In this document: piece by piece, positions 1,100-41,980 of the stretch
Position numbering within the stretch: position 1 is the stretch's first letter
Layout: each line of letters starts with the position of its first letter
Sequence record: OP018999.1
Direction: 5' to 3' (one strand)
DNA: 43,714 nucleotides
From: Escherichia phage NTNC80A
Notes under the pieces: generated by a model
The model's database searches: none
What the model saw: only the letters and a program-made list of their open reading frames with translations
Told to the model about the DNA's origin: nothing
Made by a program: the position numbers and the translations under genes

Positions 1100-1363
1100 T
1101 ACGGAGGTCGCTCACAAAGTAACCAAAGTCAAAATTTTGATGTAGGCGTGTGTCAGCTCTCTCGCCCTCGCCCTCGCCGGGACGTCCCCATAGGGTGCCT
1201 AGGCATTTCTAGGGCAGCGGGAGGGCCGCCACGGGCCTTTCTTAGTGAGGGCCAAAGGTTGCCTAGGCTAGCCGGAGGAGGGCCGAGGAGGGCCATTCAG
1301 GGCCGCTTGACAGCGTGTGTGGGCGTGGGCTATCTGTCCGTTTGTCGCTACGCTCCGCACTCA
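1100..1363. other. GC-rich repetitive tract, candidate terminal-repeat / concatemer-junction region
   Basis: Abrupt GC-rich non-coding DNA with short repeats (CTCGCC x3, GCCTAGG x2, GAGGGCC x3) between the last late gene and the first early promoter, where T7-group genomes carry their terminal redundancy. Confidence 0.35.
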
Positions 1364-1516
1364 CTACCTGACGTGTACCTTAGTTATTACCTTAGTAACT
1401 TCCTTATCGTGTACCTTGAGATAGTCTTAGTTACTACCTTAGTCACTTCCTTAGTAGCTACCTTAGTGAGTGGCTTAGTGGCTATCTATTGCTGTCTTAG
1501 TGTTACCTTAGTGATT
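1364..1516. repeat. tandem array of ~12 imperfect 12-bp repeats (core ACCTTAGT)
   Basis: Read directly: taccttagttat / taccttagtaac / ttccttatcgtg / taccttgagata / gtcttagttac / taccttagtcac / ttccttagtagc / taccttagtgag / tggcttagtggc ... taccttagtgat. Resembles the short repeat arrays next to the T7 terminal repeat. Confidence 0.7.
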
Positions 1517-1659
1517 GCATAGCTAAAGCTATAAGATGCAAATAGGTCGCGGTCGGTAGGCCGCTAAAGAAAGAGAATAGTAATAAGATGCAGTAGGAGG
1601 AACACCAGAAACCTAGCCAACCTAGCCTATCCTAGCCTTGTATCTATTGCTTTTCCTTA

Positions 1660-1771: not shown

Positions 1772-1892
1772 ACAGTCATCGGGAGGCAACATAGCCAAAC
1801 GGTAGGTAACTAAGTTACCTTGCTCTTTAACAATTTGCTTAGTGTAACCTATGTATGCCGTGGTTAATTACTTATTGAATGAGGAGTTAACT

Positions 1893-4212: not shown

Positions 4213-6840
4213 ATGCAAGATTTACACGCTATCCAGCTTCAACTAGAGGAAGAAATGTTTAACGGCGGTATTCGCCGCTTTGAAGCAGACCAACAGCGCC
4301 AAATTGCATCGGGTAATGAATCCGATACGGCTTGGAATCACCGCTTGTTGTCTGAGCTAATCGCGCCTATGGCTGAAGGTATTCAGGCTTACAAGGAAGC
4401 CTACGAAGGCAAGAAAGGACGCGCACCGCGTGCACTGGCTTTCATTAACTGCGTAGAGAACGAAGTGGCAGCATATATCACGATGAAAATCGTAATGGAT
4501 ATGCTTAACACTGATGTAACCTTGCAAGCCATAGCAATGAATGTAGCTGACCGCATCGAAGACCAAGTACGCTTCAGCAAGCTGGAAGGTCACGCCGCCA
4601 AATATTTTGAGAAAGTTAAGAAGTCACTCAAGGCAAGTAAGACTAAATCATATCGCCATGCGCACAATGTAGCTGTAGTGGCTGAGAAGTCAGTTGCCGA
4701 ACGTGACGCAGACTTCTCCCGCTGGGAAGCGTGGCCTAAGGATACCTTGCTACAAATCGGGATGACCTTGCTCGAAATACTGGAGAATAGTGTATTCTTC
4801 AACGGGCAGCCTGTTTTCCTACGCACCTTGCGTACTAATGGCGGCAAACACGGCGTTTACTACTTACAGACCAGTGAACACGTAGGCGAGTGGATAACTG
4901 CCTTCAAAGAGCACGTAGCGCAACTGAGTCCGGCCTATGCACCTTGCGTTATCCCTCCGCGTCCGTGGGTGTCACCTTTTAACGGCGGTTTTCACACTGA
5001 GAAAGTAGCAAGCCGCATCCGTCTGGTAAAAGGCAACCGTGAGCACGTCCGTAAGCTAACCAAAAAGCAAATGCCTACGGTCTATAAGGCTGTTAATGCT
5101 TTACAGGCTACGAAATGGCAGGTTAACAAGGAAGTGTTACAGGTTGTGGAAGACGTAATACGGCTTGATTTGGGCTATGGTGTGCCTTCCTTTAAGCCAC
5201 TCATCGACCGTGAGAACAAGCCAGCTAACCCCGTGCCTGTTGAGTTCCAACATTTGCGCGGTCGTGAGTTGAAAGAAATGCTAACGCCGGAGCAGTGGCA
5301 AGCCTTCATCAACTGGAAGGGCGAATGCACCAAGCTATACACCGCCGAAACTAAGCGCGGCAGTAAGTCGGCAGCTACCGTTCGCATGGTTGGACAAGCC
5401 CGAAAATACAGCCAGTTTGACGCGATCTACTTCGTGTATGCACTGGACAGCCGAAGCCGCGTTTATGCGCAATCTAGCACGCTTTCCCCGCAGTCTAACG
5501 ACTTAGGCAAGGCATTGCTCCGTTTTACCGAAGGGCAGACTATAGACAGCGCTGAGGCGCTTAAGTGGTTTTTGGTGAACGGGGCTAATAACTGGGGTTG
5601 GGATAAGAAAACTTTTGACGTGCGCACTGCTAACGTGCTGGATGGAGAGTTTCAAGATATGTGCCGCGATATTGCAGCCGACCCGCTGACTTTCACTCAA
5701 TGGGTAAATGCTGATTCTCCTTATGGATTCCTTGCGTGGTGCTTCGAGTACGCTCGTTATTTAGATGCACTGGATGAAGGTACACAGGACCAATTCATGA
5801 CGCACCTACCAGTACACCAAGATGGTAGTTGTTCTGGTATCCAGCACTATAGTGCAATGCTACGTGATGAGGTAGGCGCGAAGGCGGTAAACCTTAAGCC
5901 TTCCGACTCGCCGCAAGATATTTATGGGGCGGTGGCGCAAGTAGTTATCCAGAAGAATTACGCTTACATGAATGCAGACGACGCAGAGACTTTTACGTCT
6001 GGAAGCGTAACACTTACAGGTGCAGAACTGCGTAGCATGGCGAGCGCATGGGATATGATAGGAATCACTCGCGGCTTAACCAAAAAGCCGGTAATGACCT
6101 TGCCTTACGGATCCACTCGCTTAACCTGCCGTGAGTCAGTGATTGATTATATCATTGATTTGGAAGAAAAAGAGGCGCAGAGAGCTATTGCAGAAGGGCG
6201 GACGGCTAATCCGGTGCACCCTTTTGATAATGACCGCAAAGACTACCTAACACCTGGTGCAGCTTACAACTATATGACTGCTTTAATTTGGCCTTCTATT
6301 TCTGAGGTTGTTAAAGCACCTATAGTGGCGATGAAGATGATTCGTCAGCTTGCACGTTTTGCAGCTAAAAGAAATGAAGGCTTAGAATATACCCTACCTA
6401 CTGGCTTCATCTTGCAACAAAAGATAATGGCTACCGATATGCTTCGTGTATCCACTTGCTTGATGGGTGAGATCAAGATGAGTCTACAGATTGAGACGGA
6501 TGTAGTTGATGAAACGGCAATGATGGGCGCTGCCGCTCCTAACTTTGTTCACGGGCACGATGCTAGTCACCTTATATTAACGGTATGTGACCTAGTTGAT
6601 AAAGGGATTACATCTATTGCGGTCATCCATGACTCTTTCGGGACTCATGCAGGCCGCACCGCAGACCTGCGGGATAGCTTAAGGGCAGAAATGGTTAAGA
6701 TGTATCAAGGCCGTAATGCTTTACAGCAACTGCTGGATGAGCATGAAGAGCGTTGGCTAGTAGATACTGGCATCCAAGTGCCAGAGCAAGGGGAGTTTAA
6801 TCTTGAAGAGATATTAGTTTCTGACTATTGCTTTGCATAA
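4213..6840 (+). CDS. single-subunit DNA-directed RNA polymerase, SP6-type
   Basis: 875 aa; start [24 protein letters not shown] and motifs [33 protein letters not shown] match SP6 RNAP as recalled; end ...YCFA. Its specificity fits the promoters in this window. Confidence 0.97.
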
Positions 6841-6848
6841 TACTAATA

Positions 6849-6878
6849 GGCCATTCCTTCGGGAGTGGCCTTTTCTTT
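6849..6878 (+). terminator. intrinsic terminator after the RNAP gene
   Basis: ggccattcc-ttcg-ggagtggcc: 9-bp stem with UUCG tetraloop, then TTTTCTTT. Confidence 0.7.
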
Positions 6879-6913: not shown

Positions 6914-6929
6914 GTCTCACATGTGAGAC
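6914..6929. repeat. 16-bp perfect palindrome GTCTCACATGTGAGAC
   Basis: Exact palindrome ending 2 nt before the phage promoter at 6932. Confidence 0.8.
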
Positions 6930-6931
6930 TT

Positions 6932-6954
6932 ATTTACCGGACACTATAGGAGAG
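6932..6954 (+). promoter_or_regulatory. phage RNAP promoter (SP6-type)
   Basis: atttaccggacactataggagag; +1 G at 6949. Confidence 0.7.
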
Positions 6955-7095
6955 CCGTCGGAGACGGGAAAGAAAGGGAATATAAAGAATATAAAGGAAG
7001 TAATAGGTATTAAAGGTTATATAGGATTACCTAGGAATACCTATTACCTTCTTCCTTCCTCTTATTACTACTTAGAGGAAGGGCAGACCTAGGTC
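6955..7095. other. AT/purine-rich inter-promoter region, candidate primary origin of replication
   Basis: Region with inverted repeat aggaagtaataggtat / atacctattaccttcttcct, bracketed by two phage promoters just downstream of the RNAP gene; same position as the T7 primary origin. Confidence 0.35.
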
Positions 7096-7111
7096 GTCTC
7101 ACATGTGAGAC
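7096..7111. repeat. 16-bp perfect palindrome GTCTCACATGTGAGAC
   Basis: Exact copy, 5 nt upstream of the promoter at 7117. Confidence 0.8.
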
Positions 7112-7116
7112 TTCGT

Positions 7117-7139
7117 ATTTACCAGACAGTATAGATAAG
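7117..7139 (+). promoter_or_regulatory. phage RNAP promoter (variant)
   Basis: atttaccagacaGtatagataag; +1 G at 7134. Confidence 0.6.
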
Positions 7140-7164: not shown

Positions 7165-7293
7165 ATGCGTAACTTTGAAAAGATGACCCGTAAAGCTAAC
7201 CGTTTCGACATGGAAGAAGGGCAGAAGAAAGGCAAGAAGCTGAATAAACCTGTCCGTGACCGTGCATCTAAACGCGCTGCGTGGGAGTTCTAA
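7165..7293 (+). CDS. small basic protein (42 aa), T7 gp1.1-like
   Basis: MRNFEKMTRKANRFDMEEGQKKGKKLNKPVRDRASKRAAWEF; same length and N-terminus (MRNFEKM) as T7 gp1.1 as recalled; SD GGAGA 7 nt upstream. Confidence 0.6.
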   Translation: MRNFEKMTRKANRFDMEEGQKKGKKLNKPVRDRASKRAAWEF

Positions 7294-7296
7294 GTT

Positions 7297-9285
7297 ATGG
7301 CTATTATTCAGAATGTACCGTGTCCTGCTTGCCAAAAGAACGGACATGATATTACTGGCAATCATTTAATGATCTTTGACGATGGGGCAGGATACTGTAA
7401 CCGTGGTCACTTCCATGATAACGGTAAACCTTATTACCACAAGCCGGAAGGTGGCATCGAGATAACCGAGTTACCTATTACTGGCAATATCAAATATACA
7501 CCTTCTCAATTCAAAGAAATGGAGAAGGAAGGGAAGATAAGCGACCCTAAGTTGCGCGCCATCGCACTTGGTGGTATGCGTATGAAAGACCGTTGGGAGG
7601 TTATGAATGAGCAAGAAAGGGCAGACCAAGAAGCCGAGTGGAAACTCGATGTTGAATGGTTCCTCACGCTTAAGCGTAAGAACCTTGTATCCCGTCACAT
7701 TCGAGGCGACATCGCTGCAATGTATGATGTGCGCGTCGGACATGATGAAGAAGGCCGAGTCAACCGTCACTACTATCCTAGATACGAAAAGGGTGTGCTC
7801 GTGGGAGCAAAGTGCCGGACGCTGCCGAAGGATTTTAAGTTCGGTCACTTAGGTAAACTCTTTGGTATGCAAGACCTTTTCGGGATGAACACTTTGTCTC
7901 ACGTGTTAGACAAGGGAAGACGAAAGGATTGCTTGCTTATTGTAGGTGGTGAACTGGATGCACTAGCAGCGCAGCAGATGCTCCTTGATTCTGCCAAGGG
8001 TACTAAGTGGGAAGGTCAGCCATACCACGTGTGGTCTGTCAACAAAGGTGAATCTTGCCTTGAAGAGATAGTGCAAAACCGTGAACACATCGCCCAATTC
8101 AAGAAGATTATCTGGGGCTTCGATGGTGATGAGGTAGGACAGAAGCAGAACCAGCAAGCGGCTCGCCTGTTTCCCGGCAAATCCTATATCCTTGAGTACC
8201 CTTCTGGTTGCAAAGATGCCAACAAGGCATTGATGGCTGGCAAGGCTAAAGAATTTGTGGATGCTTGGTTTAATGCAAAGTCATCTGATGAAGTCTTTGG
8301 TAGCCAGATTAAATCTATCGCATCTCAAAGGGATAAGCTCAAGGCTGCACGTCCAGAACAAGGGCTGTCATGGCCTTGGCCTAAGCTAAACAAGGTAACG
8401 CTAGGTATTCGTAAGAACCAACTTATCATTGTAGGCGCAGGCTCTGGTGTAGGTAAGACTGAGTTCCTTCGTGAAGTAGTTAAGCACCTCATTGAAGAAC
8501 ACGGTGAATCTGTAGGCATCATTTCTACAGAAGACCCGATGGTCAAGGTGTCCCGTGCTTTTATCGGTAAGTGGATTGATAAGCGTATTGAGTTACCGCC
8601 AACCAACGACCCGAAAGAAGATGGATACCGTGAGGTGTTCGACTACACCGAGGAAGAAGCTAACGCCGCCATTGATTATGTAGCTGATACAGGTAAGCTG
8701 TTTGTAGCTGACCTAGAGGGTGACTATTCGATGGAAAAGGTAGAGCAAACTTGCCTAGAGTTTGAGGCTATGGGCATTTCTAATATCATCATTGATAACT
8801 TAACGGGGATTAAATTAGATGAGCGTGCTTTTGGTGGGAAGGTTGGTGCACTTGATGAATGCGTCAAGCGGATTGGTACTATCAAAGACCGACACCCGGT
8901 TACTATATTCCTTGTATCACACCTTACACGTCCTCCGGCAAACCGTACCCAACACGAAGAAGGTGGCGAGGTTATCCTTTCTGACTTCCGAGGCTCAGGC
9001 GCTATCGGATTCTGGGCATCTTACGCCTTGGGGATTGAGCGTAACACAAGAGCTGAAACGCTTGACGAAAGGACTACCACGTACATCTCATGTGTCAAAG
9101 ACCGCGACCAAGGTATCTACACTGGAACCAAGGTCATGCTTAAGGGTGACATTCAAACCGGACGTTTAATGGAACCACAAGCCCGTACTAAGTCATTTGA
9201 TACAGGTGAAGCAAGGCAACAAGAAGTGCCGGATTTACCGGACACTATAGAAGAGACAACCTTTGACGATGAACAGGAGTTTTAA
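7297..9285 (+). CDS. DNA primase/helicase (T7 gp4-like)
   Basis: N-terminal zinc ribbon CPACQKNG...CNRGH, Walker A GAGSGVGKT, acidic C-terminus ending DDEQEF. Confidence 0.95.
   Translation: MAIIQNVPCPACQKNGHDITGNHLMIFDDGAGYCNRGHFHDNGKPYYHKPEGGIEITELPITGNIKYTPSQFKEMEKEGKISDPKLRAIALGGMRMKDRWEVMNEQERADQEAEWKLDVEWFLTLKRKNLVSRHIRGDIAAMYDVRVGHDEEGRVNRHYYPRYEKGVLVGAKCRTLPKDFKFGHLGKLFGMQDLFGMNTLSHVLDKGRRKDCLLIVGGELDALAAQQMLLDSAKGTKWEGQPYHVWSVNKGESCLEEIVQNREHIAQFKKIIWGFDGDEVGQKQNQQAARLFPGKSYILEYPSGCKDANKALMAGKAKEFVDAWFNAKSSDEVFGSQIKSIASQRDKLKAARPEQGLSWPWPKLNKVTLGIRKNQLIIVGAGSGVGKTEFLREVVKHLIEEHGESVGIISTEDPMVKVSRAFIGKWIDKRIELPPTNDPKEDGYREVFDYTEEEANAAIDYVADTGKLFVADLEGDYSMEKVEQTCLEFEAMGISNIIIDNLTGIKLDERAFGGKVGALDECVKRIGTIKDRHPVTIFLVSHLTRPPANRTQHEEGGEVILSDFRGSGAIGFWASYALGIERNTRAETLDERTTTYISCVKDRDQGIYTGTKVMLKGDIQTGRLMEPQARTKSFDTGEARQQEVPDLPDTIEETTFDDEQEF
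9233..9255 (+). promoter_or_regulatory. phage RNAP promoter embedded in the 3' end of the helicase gene
   Basis: atttaccggacactatagaagag; +1 G at 9250; simultaneously encodes DLPDTIEE. Confidence 0.6.
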
Positions 9286-9463: not shown

Positions 9464-9479
9464 GTCTCACATGTGAGAC
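9464..9479. repeat. 16-bp perfect palindrome within an extended hairpin
   Basis: gcttgtctcaca/tgtgagacaggc gives a ~12-bp stem, followed by CTCTTATT; could act as a terminator or processing site. Confidence 0.7.
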
Positions 9480-13565: not shown

Positions 13566-13994
13566 ATGGCTAATCGTAAAGAGATGGAGATTGTTAAGTT
13601 AGATAATGGCTGTCTCGTGCAGACTAGCCATAAGCTCAATCCTGATGGTTACTTTCGTAAGCGTATATGGCATGAAGGTCGCTTGCAGCACATGATGTAC
13701 CATCGTTACATGTGGATTCAAAAGCATGGTGAGATACCAAAAGGGTATGAAGTTGACCACAAATGTAAGAATCGTGCATGTTTCAATGTTGACCATTTAC
13801 AATTACTTAAGTCGTCTGAGCATAGAACTAAAGACAATACAGGCCGTCATGGTGATAAGAAGCAAGCTGCATATTTAATTTGGAAGCAGCATTGCGGAGC
13901 TATTACAGGAGCTGCCCTAGCTGAATTGGTTGGTGTATCATTCAGTGCTACGTGTAAGTGGATTAGAGGCTGGAGGACTAATGAGCACCAGTGA
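13566..13994 (+). CDS. HNH homing endonuclease
   Basis: VDHKCKNRACFNVDHLQL HNH motif; free-standing gene right after the polymerase; SD AGGAGA. Confidence 0.85.
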   Translation: MANRKEMEIVKLDNGCLVQTSHKLNPDGYFRKRIWHEGRLQHMMYHRYMWIQKHGEIPKGYEVDHKCKNRACFNVDHLQLLKSSEHRTKDNTGRHGDKKQAAYLIWKQHCGAITGAALAELVGVSFSATCKWIRGWRTNEHQ

Positions 13995-14165: not shown

Positions 14166-14188
14166 ATTTACTGGACACTATAGAAGGA
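14166..14188 (+). promoter_or_regulatory. phage RNAP promoter (consensus)
   Basis: atttactggacactatagaagg; +1 G at 14183. Confidence 0.75.
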
Positions 14189-14250
14189 AAGCCTAGGTAG
14201 TATAGGTTTATAAGGTAGTATAGGTAATTAAGTAAATATAGGAGATATAA
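14189..14250. other. AT-rich leader with direct repeats, candidate secondary origin
   Basis: aggtagtataggt occurs twice in tandem (cctAGGTAGTATAGGTttataAGGTAGTATAGGTaatt) directly after a promoter. Confidence 0.3.
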
Positions 14251-14252
14251 AT

Positions 14253-14630
14253 ATGTCTATGGTAACTACTCTGGTATTCGTGGCTCAATACTTTCGTGGC
14301 TTATCTAATAAGTTTAAGCAGAAGGCTATCTTTGCAATTCAAGAGCGTATCAACAAAATTGAAGAAGAACAAGTAGATGTAGAAGAACATCGTAGTTCTC
14401 AAATGATTGACTGCCACAATCGCTACTATACATCTCGTGATGACCTGAATGAACGTCAAGTCAAAGAGGTAGAAGAGATGATGGCACGTCACCAGCAAGA
14501 GCGGGACAATCTGGAAGCTACCTTCGAAGAGAACAAGGCATCAATTGCCCTTGTACATCAGGCTGCATCTGACAGTCTGAAGAAAGAGATTGTTATGCTG
14601 GAAATTGAACTTGATAACCTGACTAAGTAA
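14253..14630 (+). CDS. hypothetical protein (125 aa), coiled-coil-rich
   Basis: ORF track; SD AGGAGA; hydrophobic N-terminus then charged helical sequence. Confidence 0.6.
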   Translation: MSMVTTLVFVAQYFRGLSNKFKQKAIFAIQERINKIEEEQVDVEEHRSSQMIDCHNRYYTSRDDLNERQVKEVEEMMARHQQERDNLEATFEENKASIALVHQAASDSLKKEIVMLEIELDNLTK

Positions 14631-16513: not shown

Positions 16514-16520
16514 AGTCTCA
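16505..16520. repeat. 16-bp perfect palindrome GTCTCACATGTGAGAC
   Basis: Exact copy, 15 nt upstream of the promoter at 16536. Confidence 0.8.
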
Positions 16521-16535
16521 CATGTGAGACAAATC

Positions 16536-33375: not shown

Positions 33376-33391
33376 GTCTCACATGTGAGAC
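33376..33391. repeat. 16-bp perfect palindrome (18 bp with flanks)
   Basis: tGTCTCACATGTGAGACa between two internal virion protein genes. Confidence 0.8.
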
Positions 33392-38393: not shown

Positions 38394-38676
38394 ACATGCA
38401 GCCACAGAGGATGAAGTAGGCATCCTGCATGGCGCTATTACGAAGATGTTTAATAAGAAAGCAAAGGCTATACTGGACACTATAGAAGCAGACCCTGATT
38501 CTGCTATGCACCTAGTGTCAGGTAAAGATATTGGAGCCATGTGTAAATGGGTTTTAGATAACGGCATTACTGCCACCCCTGCTGCACAGCAGGAGGAGTC
38601 CAAGTTATCTAAGCGCCTCAAGGCCATCCGAGAGGCGTCCAGTGGCAAGATCATTCAGTTCACTAAGGAGGATTGA
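38377..38676 (+). CDS. terminase small subunit (T7 gp18-like)
   Basis: GTG 38377 with SD GGAGGA 6 nt upstream (ORF track 38332); VSVHNKHAATEDEVGILHGAI N-terminus; directly precedes the large subunit. Confidence 0.7.
   Translation: MSVHNKHAATEDEVGILHGAITKMFNKKAKAILDTIEADPDSAMHLVSGKDIGAMCKWVLDNGITATPAAQQEESKLSKRLKAIREASSGKIIQFTKED
38468..38490 (+). promoter_or_regulatory. promoter-like sequence inside the small terminase gene
   Basis: ctatactggacactatagaagcag: core matches consensus, two upstream mismatches. Confidence 0.4.
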
Positions 38677-40571
38677 TGGCTAAGGCTAGAGAATCACAAG
38701 CGGAGGCTCTTGCCAGATGGGAGATGCTACACGAGTTACAGCAGACCTTCCCTTATACCGCAGAAGGTTTGCTTCTCTTTGCTGATACAGTTATTCATAA
38801 TTTAATTGCAGGTAGTCCTCATCTGATTCGTATGCAGGCAGACATCTTGAAGTTCCTATTCTACGGACACAAGTATCGCCTCATCGAAGCGCCCCGTGGT
38901 ATCGCTAAAACTACACTGGCAGCAATCTATACGGTGTTCCGTATCATTCATGAGCCTCATAAGCGCATCATGGTTGTATCCCAAAACGCCAAGCGAGCAG
39001 AGGAAATTGCAGGTTGGGTGGTCAAAATATTCCGAGGATTGGACTTCCTAGAGTTTATGCTGCCAGACATCTACGCTGGCGACCGTGCATCCGTTAAGGC
39101 ATTCGAGATTCACTATACACTGCGTGGAAGCGACAAGTCCCCTTCTGTATCCTGCTACTCTATTGAAGCAGGTATGCAGGGTGCTCGTGCAGACATCATT
39201 CTAGCAGATGACGTTGAATCTATGCAGAATGCGCGTACCGCAGCAGGCCGTGCATTGCTTGAGGAATTGACCAAGGAGTTTGAATCTATCAACCAGTTTG
39301 GTGATATTATCTACCTTGGTACACCACAGAATGTGAACTCTATTTACAACAACCTCCCTGCACGCGGTTATTCTGTTCGCATCTGGACTGCTCGTTACCC
39401 TTCGGTAGAGCAAGAGCAATGTTATGGTGACTTCCTTGCACCTATGATCGTGCAGGATATGAAGGACAACCCAGCATTGCGAACAGGTTATGGTTTGGAT
39501 GACAACAGTGGCGCTCCTTGTGCACCTGAAATGTATGATGATGATGTCCTGATTGAGAAGGAAATCTCACAAGGTGCTGCTAAGTTCCAGCTTCAGTTCA
39601 TGCTTAACACTCGCATGATGGATGCTGACAGATACCCATTACGCCTGAACAATCTAATCTTCACCTCGTTCGGTACAGAGGAAGTCCCTGTGATGCCTAC
39701 GTGGAGTAATGATTCCATAAACATCATTGGTGATGCACCTAAGTATGGTAACAAGCCTACGGATTTCATGTACAGACCTGTAGCTCGCCCATACGAATGG
39801 GGTGCTGTCTCCCGCAAGATTATGTATATTGACCCTGCGGGTGGCGGTAAGAACGGGGATGAGACGGGTGTAGCCATCGTATTCCTGCACGGCACATTCA
39901 TTTATGTGTATCAGTGCTTTGGTGTACCTGGCGGATACCGAGAATCGTCCCTGAATCGCATTGTGCAGGCCGCAAAGCAAGCGGGTGTTAAAGAGGTATT
40001 CATTGAGAAAAACTTTGGTCATGGCGCGTTTGAGGCTGTTATAAAGCCATACTTTGAACGAGAATGGCCTGTGACCATTGAAGAGGATTACGCCACTGGT
40101 CAAAAAGAACTCCGTATCATAGAGACATTGGAGCCGCTGATGACCGCGCATAGACTTATCTTCAATGCCGAGATGGTCAAGTCGGATTTCGCTTCAGTAC
40201 AGAACTACCCGCTTGAACTGCGGATGTCTTATAGTCTGTTCCATCAAATGTCGAACATCACTATTGAGAAGAACAGCCTCAGGCATGATGACCGCTTAGA
40301 CGCCCTGTATGGCGCTGTGCGTCAATTAACTTCTCAGATAGACTATGACGAGGTTACTCGTATTAATCGCCTCAGAGCGCAGGAGATGCGCGATTATATA
40401 CAGGCGATGAACACACCTAAACTTCGTCGGGCTATGCTGTACGGAGATTATGGTGATGAGCGAAGAACAACCAACACATCCTTAGCAATGCAGCAGAGAG
40501 TTTACGGGCAGAATTGGAGGAACCGCTCTGGTTCTAGAAATACACTTTCTTCAAGGATTTCAAGGATTTAG
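38676..40571 (+). CDS. terminase large subunit (T7 gp19-like)
   Basis: Walker A PRGIAKTT, GARADIILADDVE and IYLGTPQ match T7 gp19 motifs as recalled; ATG 38676 after SD AAGGAGGA. Confidence 0.95.
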   Translation: MAKARESQAEALARWEMLHELQQTFPYTAEGLLLFADTVIHNLIAGSPHLIRMQADILKFLFYGHKYRLIEAPRGIAKTTLAAIYTVFRIIHEPHKRIMVVSQNAKRAEEIAGWVVKIFRGLDFLEFMLPDIYAGDRASVKAFEIHYTLRGSDKSPSVSCYSIEAGMQGARADIILADDVESMQNARTAAGRALLEELTKEFESINQFGDIIYLGTPQNVNSIYNNLPARGYSVRIWTARYPSVEQEQCYGDFLAPMIVQDMKDNPALRTGYGLDDNSGAPCAPEMYDDDVLIEKEISQGAAKFQLQFMLNTRMMDADRYPLRLNNLIFTSFGTEEVPVMPTWSNDSINIIGDAPKYGNKPTDFMYRPVARPYEWGAVSRKIMYIDPAGGGKNGDETGVAIVFLHGTFIYVYQCFGVPGGYRESSLNRIVQAAKQAGVKEVFIEKNFGHGAFEAVIKPYFEREWPVTIEEDYATGQKELRIIETLEPLMTAHRLIFNAEMVKSDFASVQNYPLELRMSYSLFHQMSNITIEKNSLRHDDRLDALYGAVRQLTSQIDYDEVTRINRLRAQEMRDYIQAMNTPKLRRAMLYGDYGDERRTTNTSLAMQQRVYGQNWRNRSGSRNTLSSRISRI

Positions 40572-40572
40572 T

Positions 40573-40595
40573 ATTTACTGGACACTATAGGAGGA
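40573..40595 (+). promoter_or_regulatory. phage RNAP promoter (consensus)
   Basis: atttactggacactataggagg; +1 G at 40590. Confidence 0.75.
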
Positions 40596-40720
40596 AGACC
40601 AAGAGAATAAAGGAATATTATAGGATAATATAGGATTACCTAGGTTATAGGTATACCTTAGTATGGGTGTACTCCTGTACACCCTATTCCTACTTACTTA
40701 TACTAATATCATAGGAGGTA
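40596..40720. other. AT-rich leader sharing ATAGGATTACCTAGG with the 7021-7035 region; candidate secondary origin
   Basis: Exact 15-mer at 40630-40644 and 7021-7035, both just downstream of a phage promoter. Confidence 0.3.
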
Positions 40721-40722
40721 TA

Positions 40723-41001
40723 ATGGCTAATGACTATAGTAATCAACCCTTAACAGGACGATACGATAGGAAACAAGTACAGCCTATCAGTGAACACTTG
40801 ATGGTTCCAAGTGTTAACACTGATATTGATTTATATAACCCAGCAAAACAAGGTAGTGTTATTAATGATGCTACAAAATCTGGTAAACAGAAAGGTGCTA
40901 TGATTGCTTCAGGACTGGGTGTGATTATGTTAGCTCAAGGAAGTAAACCTACAGACAAGTGGTATCAAACAACGACTGAACAGATTATTGTTCCACAATA
41001 A
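40723..41001 (+). CDS. small protein, paralog 1 of the SGKQ(K/E)G family (92 aa)
   Basis: ATG 40723 with SD AGGAGG (ORF track 40663); ...TKSGKQKGAMIASGLGVIMLAQGSKPTDKWYQ. Confidence 0.6.
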   Translation: MANDYSNQPLTGRYDRKQVQPISEHLMVPSVNTDIDLYNPAKQGSVINDATKSGKQKGAMIASGLGVIMLAQGSKPTDKWYQTTTEQIIVPQ

Positions 41002-41013
41002 GAGGAGGGTAAT

Positions 41014-41298
41014 ATGGCAAAATATGGTGAAGCGAATACAGTAACAGGTCAAGTTTTTCGTACTAAAGAGGTTCAAACTATTGCAACAGCACTACCGTTG
41101 CCAGTTGTGTTAGAAGAAGATTTGAAATCAAAAGTACACCCTATTAATATCAACCACCTGTCTGGTAAGCAGAAGGGGGCAATGGTAGCAGTACAGAAGG
41201 CGGACAGCTCACTGTATATTGCAGTTGCACGAGGTGATTTGCCAGAGTCGCCGTGGGATGTTACAGCAATGAGTGTAGCCGTAACACCGGGAGAGTGA
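41014..41298 (+). CDS. small protein, paralog 2 of the SGKQ(K/E)G family (94 aa)
   Basis: SD GAGGAGGG; ...HLSGKQKGAMVAVQKADSSLYIAVARGD. Confidence 0.6.
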   Translation: MAKYGEANTVTGQVFRTKEVQTIATALPLPVVLEEDLKSKVHPININHLSGKQKGAMVAVQKADSSLYIAVARGDLPESPWDVTAMSVAVTPGE

Positions 41299-41302
41299 TA
41301 CT

Positions 41303-41980
41303 ATGTTAGGTGTTACTGGACAAAGACGTGCTAGTCACAAGTCAAAGGTTGCGGCGGAAGTCGCACCTTTAGTAGATTTAAATTCAATAAAAGATATACA
41401 ATCTTATCTAAACCAGAGATACCTTTCCGGTAAGCAAGAGGGCTACGCTGTACTAGCTAAAGTAGATGGAGGTTATTCTCTTTATGTTGCATCTGGTTCA
41501 AAGGTATCAGATAAATGGGTTCTTATGAAACAAGGTGTTTCAGAAGACTCTTCCTCATTAGAGCTGGTGGATGTAATAAATACTAATGTTGAGAGCTTAA
41601 GTGATACTGTAGAGGTTAATGTAACAAAAGAAAGAACTGTCTGTGTTCAAACCCCAATGATAGACTTAGCAGGTACAGTTGTATACCGTCAGGCATTAAC
41701 CGCTAACCTTAATATTACTATTAATGAGAATGGCAGTCCGGGTGATACTGTTAAACTAAAAGTTAGTATACCAGATTTACCTGGTACAAGTGGTGGGTCT
41801 TACTATACGCTGGATAATGTATTGTGTACAGCTTATAGTGAAAATGACCCTGTTACAGTAAACATAGATGTAGATGCAGCTAATACAAGCAGTATTACAG
41901 TATCTTTGAGGAAGGAGACAGCTACAGATATTAAGCTATCTTTCTTATTCATATGGTCTATGCCTATGGAGGTAGTATAG
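41303..41980 (+). CDS. paralog 3 of the SGKQ(K/E)G family with beta-rich C-terminal extension (225 aa)
   Basis: ...YLSGKQEGYAVLAKVDGGYSLYVASGSKVSDKWVL, then Thr/Val/Asn-rich strand-like sequence. Confidence 0.65.
   Translation: MLGVTGQRRASHKSKVAAEVAPLVDLNSIKDIQSYLNQRYLSGKQEGYAVLAKVDGGYSLYVASGSKVSDKWVLMKQGVSEDSSSLELVDVINTNVESLSDTVEVNVTKERTVCVQTPMIDLAGTVVYRQALTANLNITINENGSPGDTVKLKVSIPDLPGTSGGSYYTLDNVLCTAYSENDPVTVNIDVDAANTSSITVSLRKETATDIKLSFLFIWSMPMEVV

What the first reader, a model, noticed from the sequence alone, without database searches (positions are those of the whole stretch)
40596..40720. Exact 15-mer ATAGGATTACCTAGG shared by two promoter-proximal AT-rich leaders
The 15-mer occurs at 7021-7035 and 40630-40644, both in AT-rich stretches directly downstream of phage promoters. 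A third leader (14189-14250) carries a tandem direct repeat of AGGTAGTATAGGT. Shared exact sequence in otherwise unrelated leaders suggests a repeated functional element such as a secondary origin, a processing site or a binding site.
Basis: seen in the sequence. Interest (0 to 1): 0.45.

Follow-up and report, generated by a model that had tools for sequence, protein, structure and literature searches.

The report
Phased TAGG repeats behind origin-like phage promoters
The shared 15-mer is real and belongs to conserved arrays of short repeats spaced 9-10 bases apart, lying just downstream of three phage promoters in an SP6/K1-5-like phage. Two of those promoters sit where phage T7 has its replication origins, so the arrays most likely mark this phage group's unmapped origins.

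Summary
The 15-mer is present at both coordinates, and the exact match is 17 nt (ATATAGGATTACCTAGG, 7019-7035 and 40628-40644). On its own it is weak: most random genomes of this size contain a repeated 15-mer, and 6% contain a repeated 17-mer. It counts because of its setting.

The window is a permuted whole genome of an SP6/K1-5-like podophage. The leaders behind three of its 14 phage promoters carry 5-6 copies of a (A/T)TAGG(T/A) unit at 9-10 nt spacing, plus one CCTAGG. These are the three densest such clusters in the genome and the three least stable 60-bp duplex segments.

The arrays recur at the same positions in 14 relatives from six genera. They are as conserved as the flanking genes. 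A more distant lineage uses a different repeat word, TAGAGC, at both positions.

Site 1 lies between the RNA polymerase gene and a gene 1.1 homologue. Site 2 lies just after the large terminase gene. These are the positions of T7's primary origin and phiOR secondary origin.

Best reading (confidence 0.45): transcription-activated replication origins with iteron-like repeats. RNA-level roles are not excluded. This would be a new variant of a known kind.

The parts
7019..7035 (+). Copy 1 of the exact 17-nt word ATATAGGATTACCTAGG (two adjacent repeat units plus CCTAGG)
   Evidence: Relatives have ATATAGGTTTACCTAGG here.
40628..40644 (+). Copy 2 of the exact 17-nt word
   Evidence: Relatives have ATATAGGTTAACCTAGG here; phage R4596 has the identical word.
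6932..6952 (+). Phage RNA polymerase promoter A of site 1 (transcript start inferred at G 6949)
   Evidence: 0 mismatches to the consensus. Preceded by a terminator hairpin at 6848-6871.
6955..6967 (+). 5' stem-loop CCGTCGGAGACGG of the site 1 transcript
   Evidence: Invariant in 7 phages, with one compensatory change (CCATC/GATGG).
6970..7035 (+). Site 1 repeat array: AGG cores at 6975, 6995, 7005, 7014, 7023, 7033, with spacings of 10, 9, 9 and 10 between the last five
   Evidence: TRF periods 9 and 10. Third densest WAGGW cluster. Second least stable 60-bp segment.
6994..7053 (+). Long imperfect hairpin in which the AGG-rich arm pairs with the downstream CCT-rich arm. The 17-mer forms its apical loop.
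   Evidence: z -3.3. An equivalent hairpin is predicted in SP6, PM116 and ULIP33 (z -1.7, -1.9, -2.6).
7117..7137 (+). Promoter B of site 1 (degenerate: TTACCAGACAGTATAGATA)
   Evidence: 3 mismatches. Present in all relatives.
7165..7293 (+). Homologue of T7 gene 1.1
   Evidence: Pfam Phage_1_1, E 8e-16.
4213..6840 (+). Single-subunit phage RNA polymerase gene, upstream neighbour of site 1
   Evidence: RNA_pol and RPOL_N.
14166..14186 (+). Promoter of site 3 (start inferred at 14183)
14192..14245 (+). Site 3 array: six units in strict 9-nt register (AGG at 14195, 14204, 14213, 14222; AAG at 14231; AGG at 14240). The last unit is the Shine-Dalgarno sequence TATAGGAG of ORF 14253-14630.
   Evidence: TRF TAGGTAGTA x3.7. 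Least stable 60-bp segment of the genome. 89-96% identical in K1-5, SP6 and ULIP33. Absent in PP1, Era103 and PM116.
38673..40571 (+). Large terminase gene, upstream neighbour of site 2
   Evidence: Terminase-T7_RNaseH-like.
40573..40593 (+). Promoter of site 2 (start inferred at 40590), beginning 2 nt after the terminase stop codon
40606..40653 (+). Site 2 array: AGG cores at 40611, 40622, 40632, 40642, 40649 (spacings 11, 10, 10, 7)
   Evidence: TRF AATATAGGAT x3. Densest WAGGW cluster. Third least stable 60-bp segment.
40665..40684 (+). G+C-rich hairpin GGGTGTAC-TCCT-GTACACCC that follows the array
   Evidence: Sequence differs but the pairing is kept in SP6 (GGGAGGTA..TACCTCCC), PM116, PP1 and others.
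40685..40710 (+). C/T-rich tract between the hairpin and the ribosome-binding site of ORF 40723-41001
   Evidence: Present after the hairpin in all nine lineages aligned; weak predicted pairing with the Shine-Dalgarno sequence.

Best explanation
The word is a fragment of an origin-like module: a phage RNA polymerase promoter, followed 20-90 nt downstream by an array of 5-6 short direct repeats. The repeats have a TAGG(T/A) core, 9-10 bp spacing and one CCTAGG, all on the non-template strand. The array lies in the most easily melted DNA of the genome.

I propose that these modules are the replication origins of this phage group. Site 1 (after the RNA polymerase gene, before gene 1.1) would be the counterpart of the T7 primary origin. 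Site 2 (after the large terminase gene) would be the counterpart of T7 phiOR. Site 3 would be a further secondary origin.

Proposed mechanism, as in T7: the phage polymerase transcribes into the array and opens it. The purine-rich transcript (about 70% A+G) primes rightward DNA synthesis. The displaced non-template strand, which carries the repeats, is where the phage helicase-primase loads or primes.

The repeat units would be recognition sites for a phage-encoded replication protein. That would explain why their word differs between lineages but is the same at both sites within a lineage.

Shown: the repeats, their phasing, strand, position, conservation, low duplex stability, synteny with T7, and the word change in concert. 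Inferred: that DNA synthesis starts here, and what reads the repeats.
For: (1) Synteny. Site 1 lies between the RNA polymerase gene and a Phage_1_1 (T7 gp1.1) homologue. Site 2 starts 2 nt after a T7-type large terminase gene. T7 has phi1.1A/B before gene 1.1 and phiOR after gene 19. PMC8373140, citing Rabkin & Richardson 1988, names phi1.1A/B as primary origins and phiOR and phi6.5 as secondary origins.

(2) Calibrated physical property. In T7 the four least stable 60-bp segments of the whole genome lie directly after phiOL, phi1.1B, phi6.5 and phiOR. With the same measure, the three arrays rank 1, 2 and 3 in the window at both 60 and 100 bp.

(3) The three arrays are the three densest [AT]AGG[AT] clusters on the + strand (6, 6 and 5 per 70 nt). 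Block shuffles reach 5 in 9 of 200 trials and never reach 6. The three leaders also supply nearly all of the densest clusters in the 11 other genomes compared first.

(4) Phasing. 61% of successive AGG spacings in arrays from nine lineages are 9-11 nt, against 13% in the genome background. The consensus unit is WTMTAGGTANT.

(5) Selection. The leaders are as conserved as, or more conserved than, adjacent coding DNA; for example, site 3 against ULIP33 is 0.89 against 0.66.

(6) The arrays keep their genome position when the downstream gene differs (Era103, PM116 and the distant lineage). PP1 keeps the site 3 promoter and gene without an array. This argues against a gene-specific RNA regulator.

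(7) Word change in concert. In a distant lineage both the post-polymerase and the post-terminase leaders carry (T)AGAGC at spacings of 9-10 or multiples, with no TAGGT. The window's leaders carry TAGG and no TAGAG.

(8) Site 1 and site 2 share exact words of 12-17 nt in 11 of 12 genomes, against a null mean of 7.
Against: - No replication data exist for these phages in anything I could read.
- By strict order of elements, the site 1 array lies between the two promoters. That is where T7 has its R1.1 RNase III site, not its A+T-rich segment, which follows the second promoter.
- In Era103 the site 2 array is 6.5 perfect 27-bp repeats. It is not A+T-rich and is not among the least stable segments of that genome. 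Easy melting therefore cannot be the conserved property.
- All arrays lie on the transcribed sense strand. They are followed by a conserved hairpin and a C/T-rich tract, and site 3 runs in register into a Shine-Dalgarno sequence. This looks like an RNA element.
- In T7, similar words shared between leaders come from ribosome-binding-site contexts and occur in leaders unrelated to origins as well.
- A second-hand citation says Dobbins et al. 2004 placed the SP6 origin at the DNA polymerase gene.
- GC skew gives no origin signal.
Confidence: 0.45

Rival explanations
1. The arrays act in the RNA. The repeats are part of structured or protein-bound 5' leaders. At site 1 the AGG-rich array pairs with the downstream CCU-rich tract to form a long hairpin that host RNase III cuts, as at T7 R1.1. 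At sites 2 and 3 the AGG(U/A) units resemble Shine-Dalgarno sequences. They would compete with the real Shine-Dalgarno sequence for the C/U-rich tract, or attract ribosomes, and so set translation or stability of the downstream genes.
For: - The motif always lies on the sense strand downstream of a promoter.
- The site 1 leader folds far better than shuffles (z -3.5 and -3.3), and an equivalent long hairpin is predicted in SP6, PM116 and ULIP33 despite sequence divergence.
- The site 1 array occupies the slot of T7 R1.1, between two promoters.
- Site 3 is in exact 9-nt register with the Shine-Dalgarno sequence TATAGGAG.
- A hairpin with compensatory changes and then a C/U tract follow the site 2 array in all lineages, and there is weak C/U-tract pairing with the Shine-Dalgarno sequence.
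Against: - The leaders at sites 2 and 3 are not more structured than shuffles (z -0.5 and -0.2).
- The consensus fold of site 2 is weak (-3.9 kcal/mol), and the long site 1 hairpin is not recovered as a consensus.
- The site 1 array is separated from the next gene by another promoter.
- The arrays persist when the downstream gene changes, and PP1 expresses the site 3 gene without an array.
- The word changes to TAGAGC, which does not resemble a Shine-Dalgarno sequence, in a distant lineage.
- No Rfam family matches.
Confidence: 0.25
2. The arrays are DNA binding sites for a protein with a role outside replication. Candidates are a phage or host regulator of the adjacent promoters, a nucleoid protein on phased A+T-rich DNA, or a factor in concatemer processing and packaging. 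The last is suggested by site 2 lying next to the terminase genes, as T7 phiOR does.
For: - Phased direct repeats with a lineage-specific word are typical of protein-binding arrays.
- Site 2 contains one copy of TACCTTAGT, the unit repeated about 8 times next to the terminal repeat.
- Copy number varies freely in Era103.
Against: - A 9-nt period does not keep sites on one face of B-DNA.
- No candidate binding protein was identified.
- Site 1 and site 3 have no link to packaging.
- The arrays lie downstream of the promoters, not over them.
Confidence: 0.15
3. The arrays have no function of their own. The shared word would be a chance match within low-complexity, A+T-rich intergenic DNA that grows by replication slippage and reuses words resembling ribosome-binding sites or promoter start regions (TATAGGAG).
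For: - A 15-mer pair is expected by chance genome-wide, and a 17-mer pair occurs in 6% of random genomes.
- TATAGGAG is both the promoter start region and a Shine-Dalgarno sequence here.
- Era103 shows recent slippage.
- TA-dinucleotide length varies inside site 2.
Against: - The same three positions carry arrays across six genera and in uncultured relatives.
- Conservation is equal to or above that of coding DNA.
- Leader-to-leader similarity is far beyond composition-matched nulls.
- The other eleven promoter leaders lack arrays.
Confidence: 0.05

Closest known systems
T7 primary origin of replication (promoters phi1.1A/phi1.1B plus A+T-rich segment before gene 1.1)
   Same: - Same genome position: after the RNA polymerase gene and before a gene 1.1 homologue, about 14% from the physical left end against about 15% in T7.
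- Two tandem phage promoters.
- Among the least stable duplex DNA of the genome.
   Different: - Here the unstable, repeat-bearing segment lies between the two promoters, not after the second.
- It consists of phased TAGG units plus a complementary CCT arm that forms a long hairpin.
- T7's segment has no such regular array, although it holds the palindrome AACCTTAAGGTT. That resembles TAACCTAGGTTA at K1-5 site 2, a lead I did not test.
T7 secondary origins phiOR and phi6.5 (and phiOL)
   Same: - A phage promoter followed at once by very unstable DNA.
- phiOR lies after the large terminase gene, as site 2 does.
   Different: The T7 phiOR leader shows no significant similarity to the T7 primary-origin leader. 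Here the site 1 and site 2 leaders share 12-17-nt words in 11 of 12 genomes.
Iteron-type origins (plasmid iterons, lambda ori, P4 ori/crr bound by the alpha primase-helicase; from my own knowledge)
   Same: - Several direct repeats in one orientation.
- Variable copy number.
- A word that differs between lineages but matches between the separate sites of one genome.
   Different: - The units are much shorter, with a core of 5-6 nt at 9-10 nt spacing against 17-22 bp for classical iterons.
- No initiator protein is known in the T7 supergroup.
- Binding is untested.
T7 RNase III site R1.1 (from my own knowledge of the T7 map)
   Same: It lies between the two promoters that follow the RNA polymerase gene. 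The site 1 transcript is predicted to form an irregular hairpin of about 21 bp.
   Different: Sites 2 and 3 carry the same repeats without such a hairpin. Cleavage is untested.
T7 short repeat arrays SRL/SRR (CCTAAAG heptamers beside the terminal repeat; from my own knowledge)
   Same: These are short phased words of unknown function. In T7 the related word [CT]T[AT]AAG clusters both at the ends and in the primary origin. Here TACCTTAGT repeats flank the terminal repeat, and one copy lies in site 2.
   Different: The word, the period (12 nt) and the location all differ. The link to the TAGG arrays is a resemblance only.

Membership tests
T7-type transcription-dependent replication origin | Phage RNA polymerase promoter directly upstream, reading into the element | tested here: met
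   Promoters at 6934, 14168 and 40575 match the consensus with 0 mismatches. The arrays begin 20-45 nt after the inferred start.
T7-type transcription-dependent replication origin | Easily melted (A+T-rich) segment just downstream of the promoter | tested here: met
   The arrays rank 1-3 for lowest nearest-neighbour stability at 60 and 100 bp. The same measure ranks T7's phiOL, phi1.1B, phi6.5 and phiOR leaders 1-4. Caveat: this is not met by Era103 site 2.
T7-type transcription-dependent replication origin | Primary origin placed between the RNA polymerase gene and gene 1.1 | tested here: met
   RNA_pol at 4213-6840 and Phage_1_1 at 7165-7293. T7 layout.
T7-type transcription-dependent replication origin | DNA synthesis starts there (replication bubbles, RNA-DNA junctions, origin activity on plasmids) | not testable with these tools
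   This needs experiments. GC skew is flat and uninformative.
Iteron-type origin | Array of direct repeats in one orientation with regular spacing | tested here: met
   61% of spacings are 9-11 nt against 13% in the background. TRF gives periods of 9-10.
Iteron-type origin | Cognate sequence-specific initiator protein | not testable with these tools
   The only evidence is indirect: the word changes from TAGG to TAGAGC at both sites in a distant lineage.
RNase III processing hairpin (T7 R1.1 type) | Irregular RNA hairpin of about 20 bp in the transcript | tested here: inconclusive
   Met at site 1. Not met at sites 2 and 3. The long site 1 hairpin is not recovered in the alignment consensus.
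CsrB-like protein-sponge RNA (repeated GGA motifs) | GGA core in most repeats | tested here: not met
   The base after AGG is T in 74% of 141 units and A in only 15%. Era103 units have no GGA.
Any curated RNA family (Rfam 15) | Match at the gathering score | tested here: not met
   0 matches in the whole window.

The most novel reading that the evidence does not exclude
SP6-like phages, unlike T7, may use sequence-specific origins. In this reading the phased TAGGT units are iterons read by a phage-encoded replication protein, most simply the zinc-binding or primase part of the helicase-primase acting on the displaced non-template strand. The recognition word would then co-evolve with that protein: TAGGTA in Molineuxvirinae and TAGAGC in a sister lineage. 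This would be the first initiator- or primase-specified origin in the T7 supergroup.
Probability: 0.2. Interest if true: 0.7.

Novelty: new variant of a known kind. Interest (0 to 1): 0.5.

Why it matters
- SP6, K1-5, K1E and their relatives are used in phage therapy and as sources of RNA polymerases. As far as I could find, their replication origins have never been mapped.
- The arrays give three precise, testable candidate origins, each 50-70 bp long.
- They also give a conserved motif whose reader could be identified. If the repeats are read by a phage protein, the accepted view that T7-type origins need only a promoter and A+T-rich DNA would not hold for this sister group.
- In practice, these modules would have to be kept intact when engineering such genomes or building replicating amplicons.

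Tried and rejected
- R-loop favourability (RNA/DNA-hybrid energy minus DNA-duplex nearest-neighbour energy, hybrid parameters recalled from memory). It does not pick out T7's known origins, so I dropped it as a criterion.
- GC skew is positive throughout with no inflection.
- An IMG/VR scan for WAGGT(N4) x4 returned 120+ unrelated contigs, most likely from 9-nt coding repeats, and was uninformative.
- Concerted evolution of site 1 and site 2 within genomes. The cross-genome score matrix has the within-genome pair on top only in some lineages (window, uvig472, partly Era103 and PP1). The similarity therefore reflects a shared motif vocabulary, not regular gene conversion.
- The repeats as half-sites of the phage promoter. 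Promoter specificity regions differ widely (K1-5, SP6, PM116, Era103, PP1 and uvig types) while the repeat stays TAGGTA. Rejected.
- Sigma-70 promoters in the arrays: none above chance.
- CsrA sponge: rejected because there is no GGA core.
- T7 leader-to-leader similarity as a parallel. It exists, but it comes from ribosome-binding-site words and is not specific to origins.
- Literature. No held paper discusses origins or these repeats in SP6-like phages. Dobbins 2004 and Scholl 2004 are not held, so prior description there cannot be excluded.

Full report
WHAT THE WINDOW IS

The 43,714-base window is a whole genome of an SP6/K1-5-like podophage (Molineuxvirinae, closest to Vectrevirus). The best public matches are 92-95% identical around site 1 and about 80-92% around site 2, and none is identical. 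All long genes are on the + strand. There are 14 phage-type promoters of the form TTAC(T/C)GGACACTATAG(A/G)AG, or the SP6-type TTAGGTGACACTATAG.

The assembly is circularly permuted. The physical left end of relatives (TCTCTCGCCCTCGCC...) is at window 1158. The terminal repeat, about 1158-1333, is present once.

THE OBSERVATION

The 13-mer repeat in the third leader is also real, at 14195 and 14213.

On a genome-wide null the word is not impressive. Markov-1 genomes of this size hold 1.39 repeated 15-mers on average, 6% hold a repeated 17-mer, and the window has other chance 15/16-mer pairs in genes.

Significance comes from context. Between the two leaders alone, shuffles give a longest common word of 7.1 on average and 12 at most. 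Gapped local alignments among all three leaders exceed every one of 500 shuffles: 46 against 26, 30 against 25, and 26 against 25. The leaders are therefore not 'otherwise unrelated'.

WHAT IS THERE

Each of the three leaders carries an array of 5-6 short units with an AGG core, usually (A/T)TAGG(T/A). The spacings are 9-11 nt, and each leader has one CCTAGG. Site 3 is in strict 9-nt register, and its last unit is the Shine-Dalgarno sequence.

These are the three densest [AT]AGG[AT] clusters on the + strand. Block shuffles never reach 6 per 70 nt. The + strand of the arrays is about 70% purine.

The arrays are also the three least stable 60-bp and 100-bp duplex segments of the whole genome. 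The other eleven promoter leaders have no such array.

Around the arrays, site 1 has this order of elements:
- a terminator
- a 16-bp palindrome
- promoter A
- a conserved 5' stem-loop
- the AGG array
- a complementary CCT-rich arm
- a second hairpin
- the palindrome again
- promoter B
- a gene 1.1 homologue

The transcript is predicted to fold into a long hairpin (6994-7053) with the 17-mer at its apex (z about -3.3).

Site 2 has this order: terminase stop codon, promoter, array, one TACCTTAGT, a G+C-rich hairpin, a C/T-rich tract, a ribosome-binding site.

CONSERVATION

The same three positions carry the arrays in K1-5, R4596, SP6, six further Vectrevirus genomes and Klebsiella phage K1-ULIP33. 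Proteus phage PM116 has them at sites 1 and 2 only.

Sites 1 and 2 also carry arrays in Erwinia phage Era103, Pectobacterium phage PP1 and several uncultured relatives. Site 3 is limited to the SP6, K1-5 and ULIP33 groups.

At the position of the 17-mer, relatives have ATATAGGTTTACCTAGG at site 1 and ATATAGGTTAACCTAGG at site 2. The exact identity in this phage is therefore a matter of one or two bases on top of a conserved motif.

The leaders are as conserved as, or more conserved than, adjacent coding DNA. Over 141 units from nine lineages the consensus is WTMTAGGTANT. 61% of spacings are 9-11 nt, against 13% in the background.

Two observations show that the repeat itself is the conserved feature, not base composition:
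- In Era103 the site 2 array is 6.5 perfect copies of a 27-bp unit made of three 9-bp AGGT sub-units. It is not A+T-rich.
- In a more distant lineage (terminase 52-60% and RNA polymerase 43% identical), both the post-polymerase and the post-terminase leaders carry (T)AGAGC at spacings of 9-10 or multiples, with no TAGGT. The window's leaders have TAGG and no TAGAG.

COMPARISON WITH T7

Pfam identifies the RNA polymerase upstream of site 1, a Phage_1_1 protein downstream of it, and a T7-type large terminase upstream of site 2. In T7, promoters phi1.1A and phi1.1B lie between gene 1 and gene 1.1, and phiOR follows gene 19. PMC8373140, citing Rabkin and Richardson 1988, states that phi1.1A/B are the primary origins and that phiOR and phi6.5 are secondary origins.

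As a control I applied the duplex-stability scan to T7. Its four least stable 60-bp segments lie directly after phiOL, phi1.1B, phi6.5 and phiOR. The same measure picks the three arrays in the window.

Measured from the physical left end, site 1 is at about 14% of the genome (T7 primary origin about 15%), site 3 at about 30% and site 2 at about 90%.

INTERPRETATION

The best-supported reading is that these are transcription-activated origins of the T7 type, with an added layer of phased, lineage-specific repeats. The arrays stay at their genome positions when the downstream gene is replaced (Era103, PM116, the distant lineage). PP1 keeps the site 3 promoter and gene without an array. Both facts argue for a positional, DNA-level role and against gene-specific RNA control. 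The change of word in concert at two sites suggests a phage-encoded reader. The helicase-primase acting on the displaced non-template strand is the simplest candidate, but nothing here tests that.

The main rival is an RNA-level role. The evidence for it:
- The repeats are always in the sense strand.
- Site 1 forms a long hairpin in four diverged phages, and it sits where T7 has its R1.1 RNase III site.
- Site 3 runs into a Shine-Dalgarno sequence.
- Site 2 is followed by a structurally conserved hairpin and a C/U tract that can pair weakly with the Shine-Dalgarno sequence.

Against the RNA-level role:
- Sites 2 and 3 are not more structured than shuffles.
- The consensus folds are weak.
- The TAGAGC variant does not resemble a Shine-Dalgarno sequence.

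A role as a binding array for regulation or packaging, and a purely non-functional origin by slippage, are less likely. The second is strongly disfavoured by the conservation.

LIMITS

- No experiment bears on these phages.
- The two founding genome papers are not held, so I cannot say whether they mention these repeats.
- One later paper reports that Dobbins et al. placed the SP6 origin at the DNA polymerase gene. That gene lies just upstream of site 3, but I could not check the basis for the statement.
- Statements about T7 RNase III sites, the SRL/SRR repeats and P4 iterons rest on my own knowledge.

VERDICT

I rate it a new variant of a known kind, of moderate interest.

Noticed in passing
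window 6914-6929, 7096-7111, 9464-9479, 16515-16530, 33376-33391 (exact); 1660-1675 and 7896-7911 (1-2 mismatches): A perfect 16-bp palindrome, GTCTCACATGTGAGAC, occurs five times exactly (7 sites at up to 3 mismatches; 0 of 100 shuffles reach that). All exact copies are intergenic, and three lie 4-17 nt upstream of phage promoters. Relatives carry a different palindrome at the same places: the GTCCAACGTGTTGGAC type in SP6, ULIP33, PM116 and PP1, GTCTCACACGTGAGAC in Era103, and GTCTCACAGTGTGAGAC in a distant lineage. It could be an operator for a dimeric regulator or a short terminator hairpin.
   Followed up: partly
window 1158-1333: The window is a circular permutation of a linear genome. 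The physical left end of K1-5, SP6 and R4596 (TCTCTCGCCCTCGCC...) is at 1158. The terminal repeat, which ends ...GGGCGTGGGCTA at about 1333, is present only once.
   Followed up: yes
window 1376-1518 (also 955-1075 and 40654-40662): About eight copies of a 12-nt unit, TACCTTAGTNNN, lie just inside the terminal repeat (TRF). CTTAGTG recurs three times near the right end, and one TACCTTAGT lies inside site 2, conserved as CCTTAGT in K1-5 and SP6. This resembles the heptamer arrays beside T7's terminal repeats (from my memory).
   Followed up: partly
window 1610-1638: Three copies of a 9-nt unit, AACCTAGCCT, lie just upstream of a variant of the palindrome (1660) and of the early sigma-70-like promoters.
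   Followed up: no
window 1822-1837 and 2607-2622: The exact 16-mer GCTCTTTAACAATTTG is repeated 50-80 nt downstream of two TTGACA-type early promoters (near 1744 and 2557). It is probably a shared element of early host-polymerase transcripts.
   Followed up: no
window 14871, 20147, 32198 against the other promoters: There are two promoter sub-types in one genome. Three promoters have the SP6-type upstream half, TTAGGTGACACTATAG. Most others have the K1-5 type, TTAC(T/C)GGACACTATAG.
   Followed up: no
window 13566-13994: An HNH endonuclease ORF lies just upstream of site 3, in a stretch that is poorly conserved among relatives (0.14-0.58 identity). The leader and gene that follow it are highly conserved.
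   Followed up: no
L135 (Era103) 40265-40440: 6.5 perfect copies of a 27-bp unit, GTCTATAGGTAGGCCCAGGTTATCCAG, lie behind the post-terminase promoter. This is a recent expansion of the same repeat family.
   Followed up: yes
L165 about 1780-1850 (uncultured podophage, terminase 38% identical): Directly after the terminase stop codon there are about 4.5 copies of a 13-nt unit, TACTATATAGTAA. Repeat arrays at this position may extend well beyond the SP6 group, with other words and periods.
   Followed up: no
window 40723-41001, 41014-41298, 41303-41980: Three consecutive ORFs downstream of site 2 share one N-terminal domain (PHROG 2725, labelled 'acetyl-CoA acetyltransferase', which looks like a mis-annotation carried over from other records; no Pfam hit for the first two, the third not scanned).
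   Followed up: no
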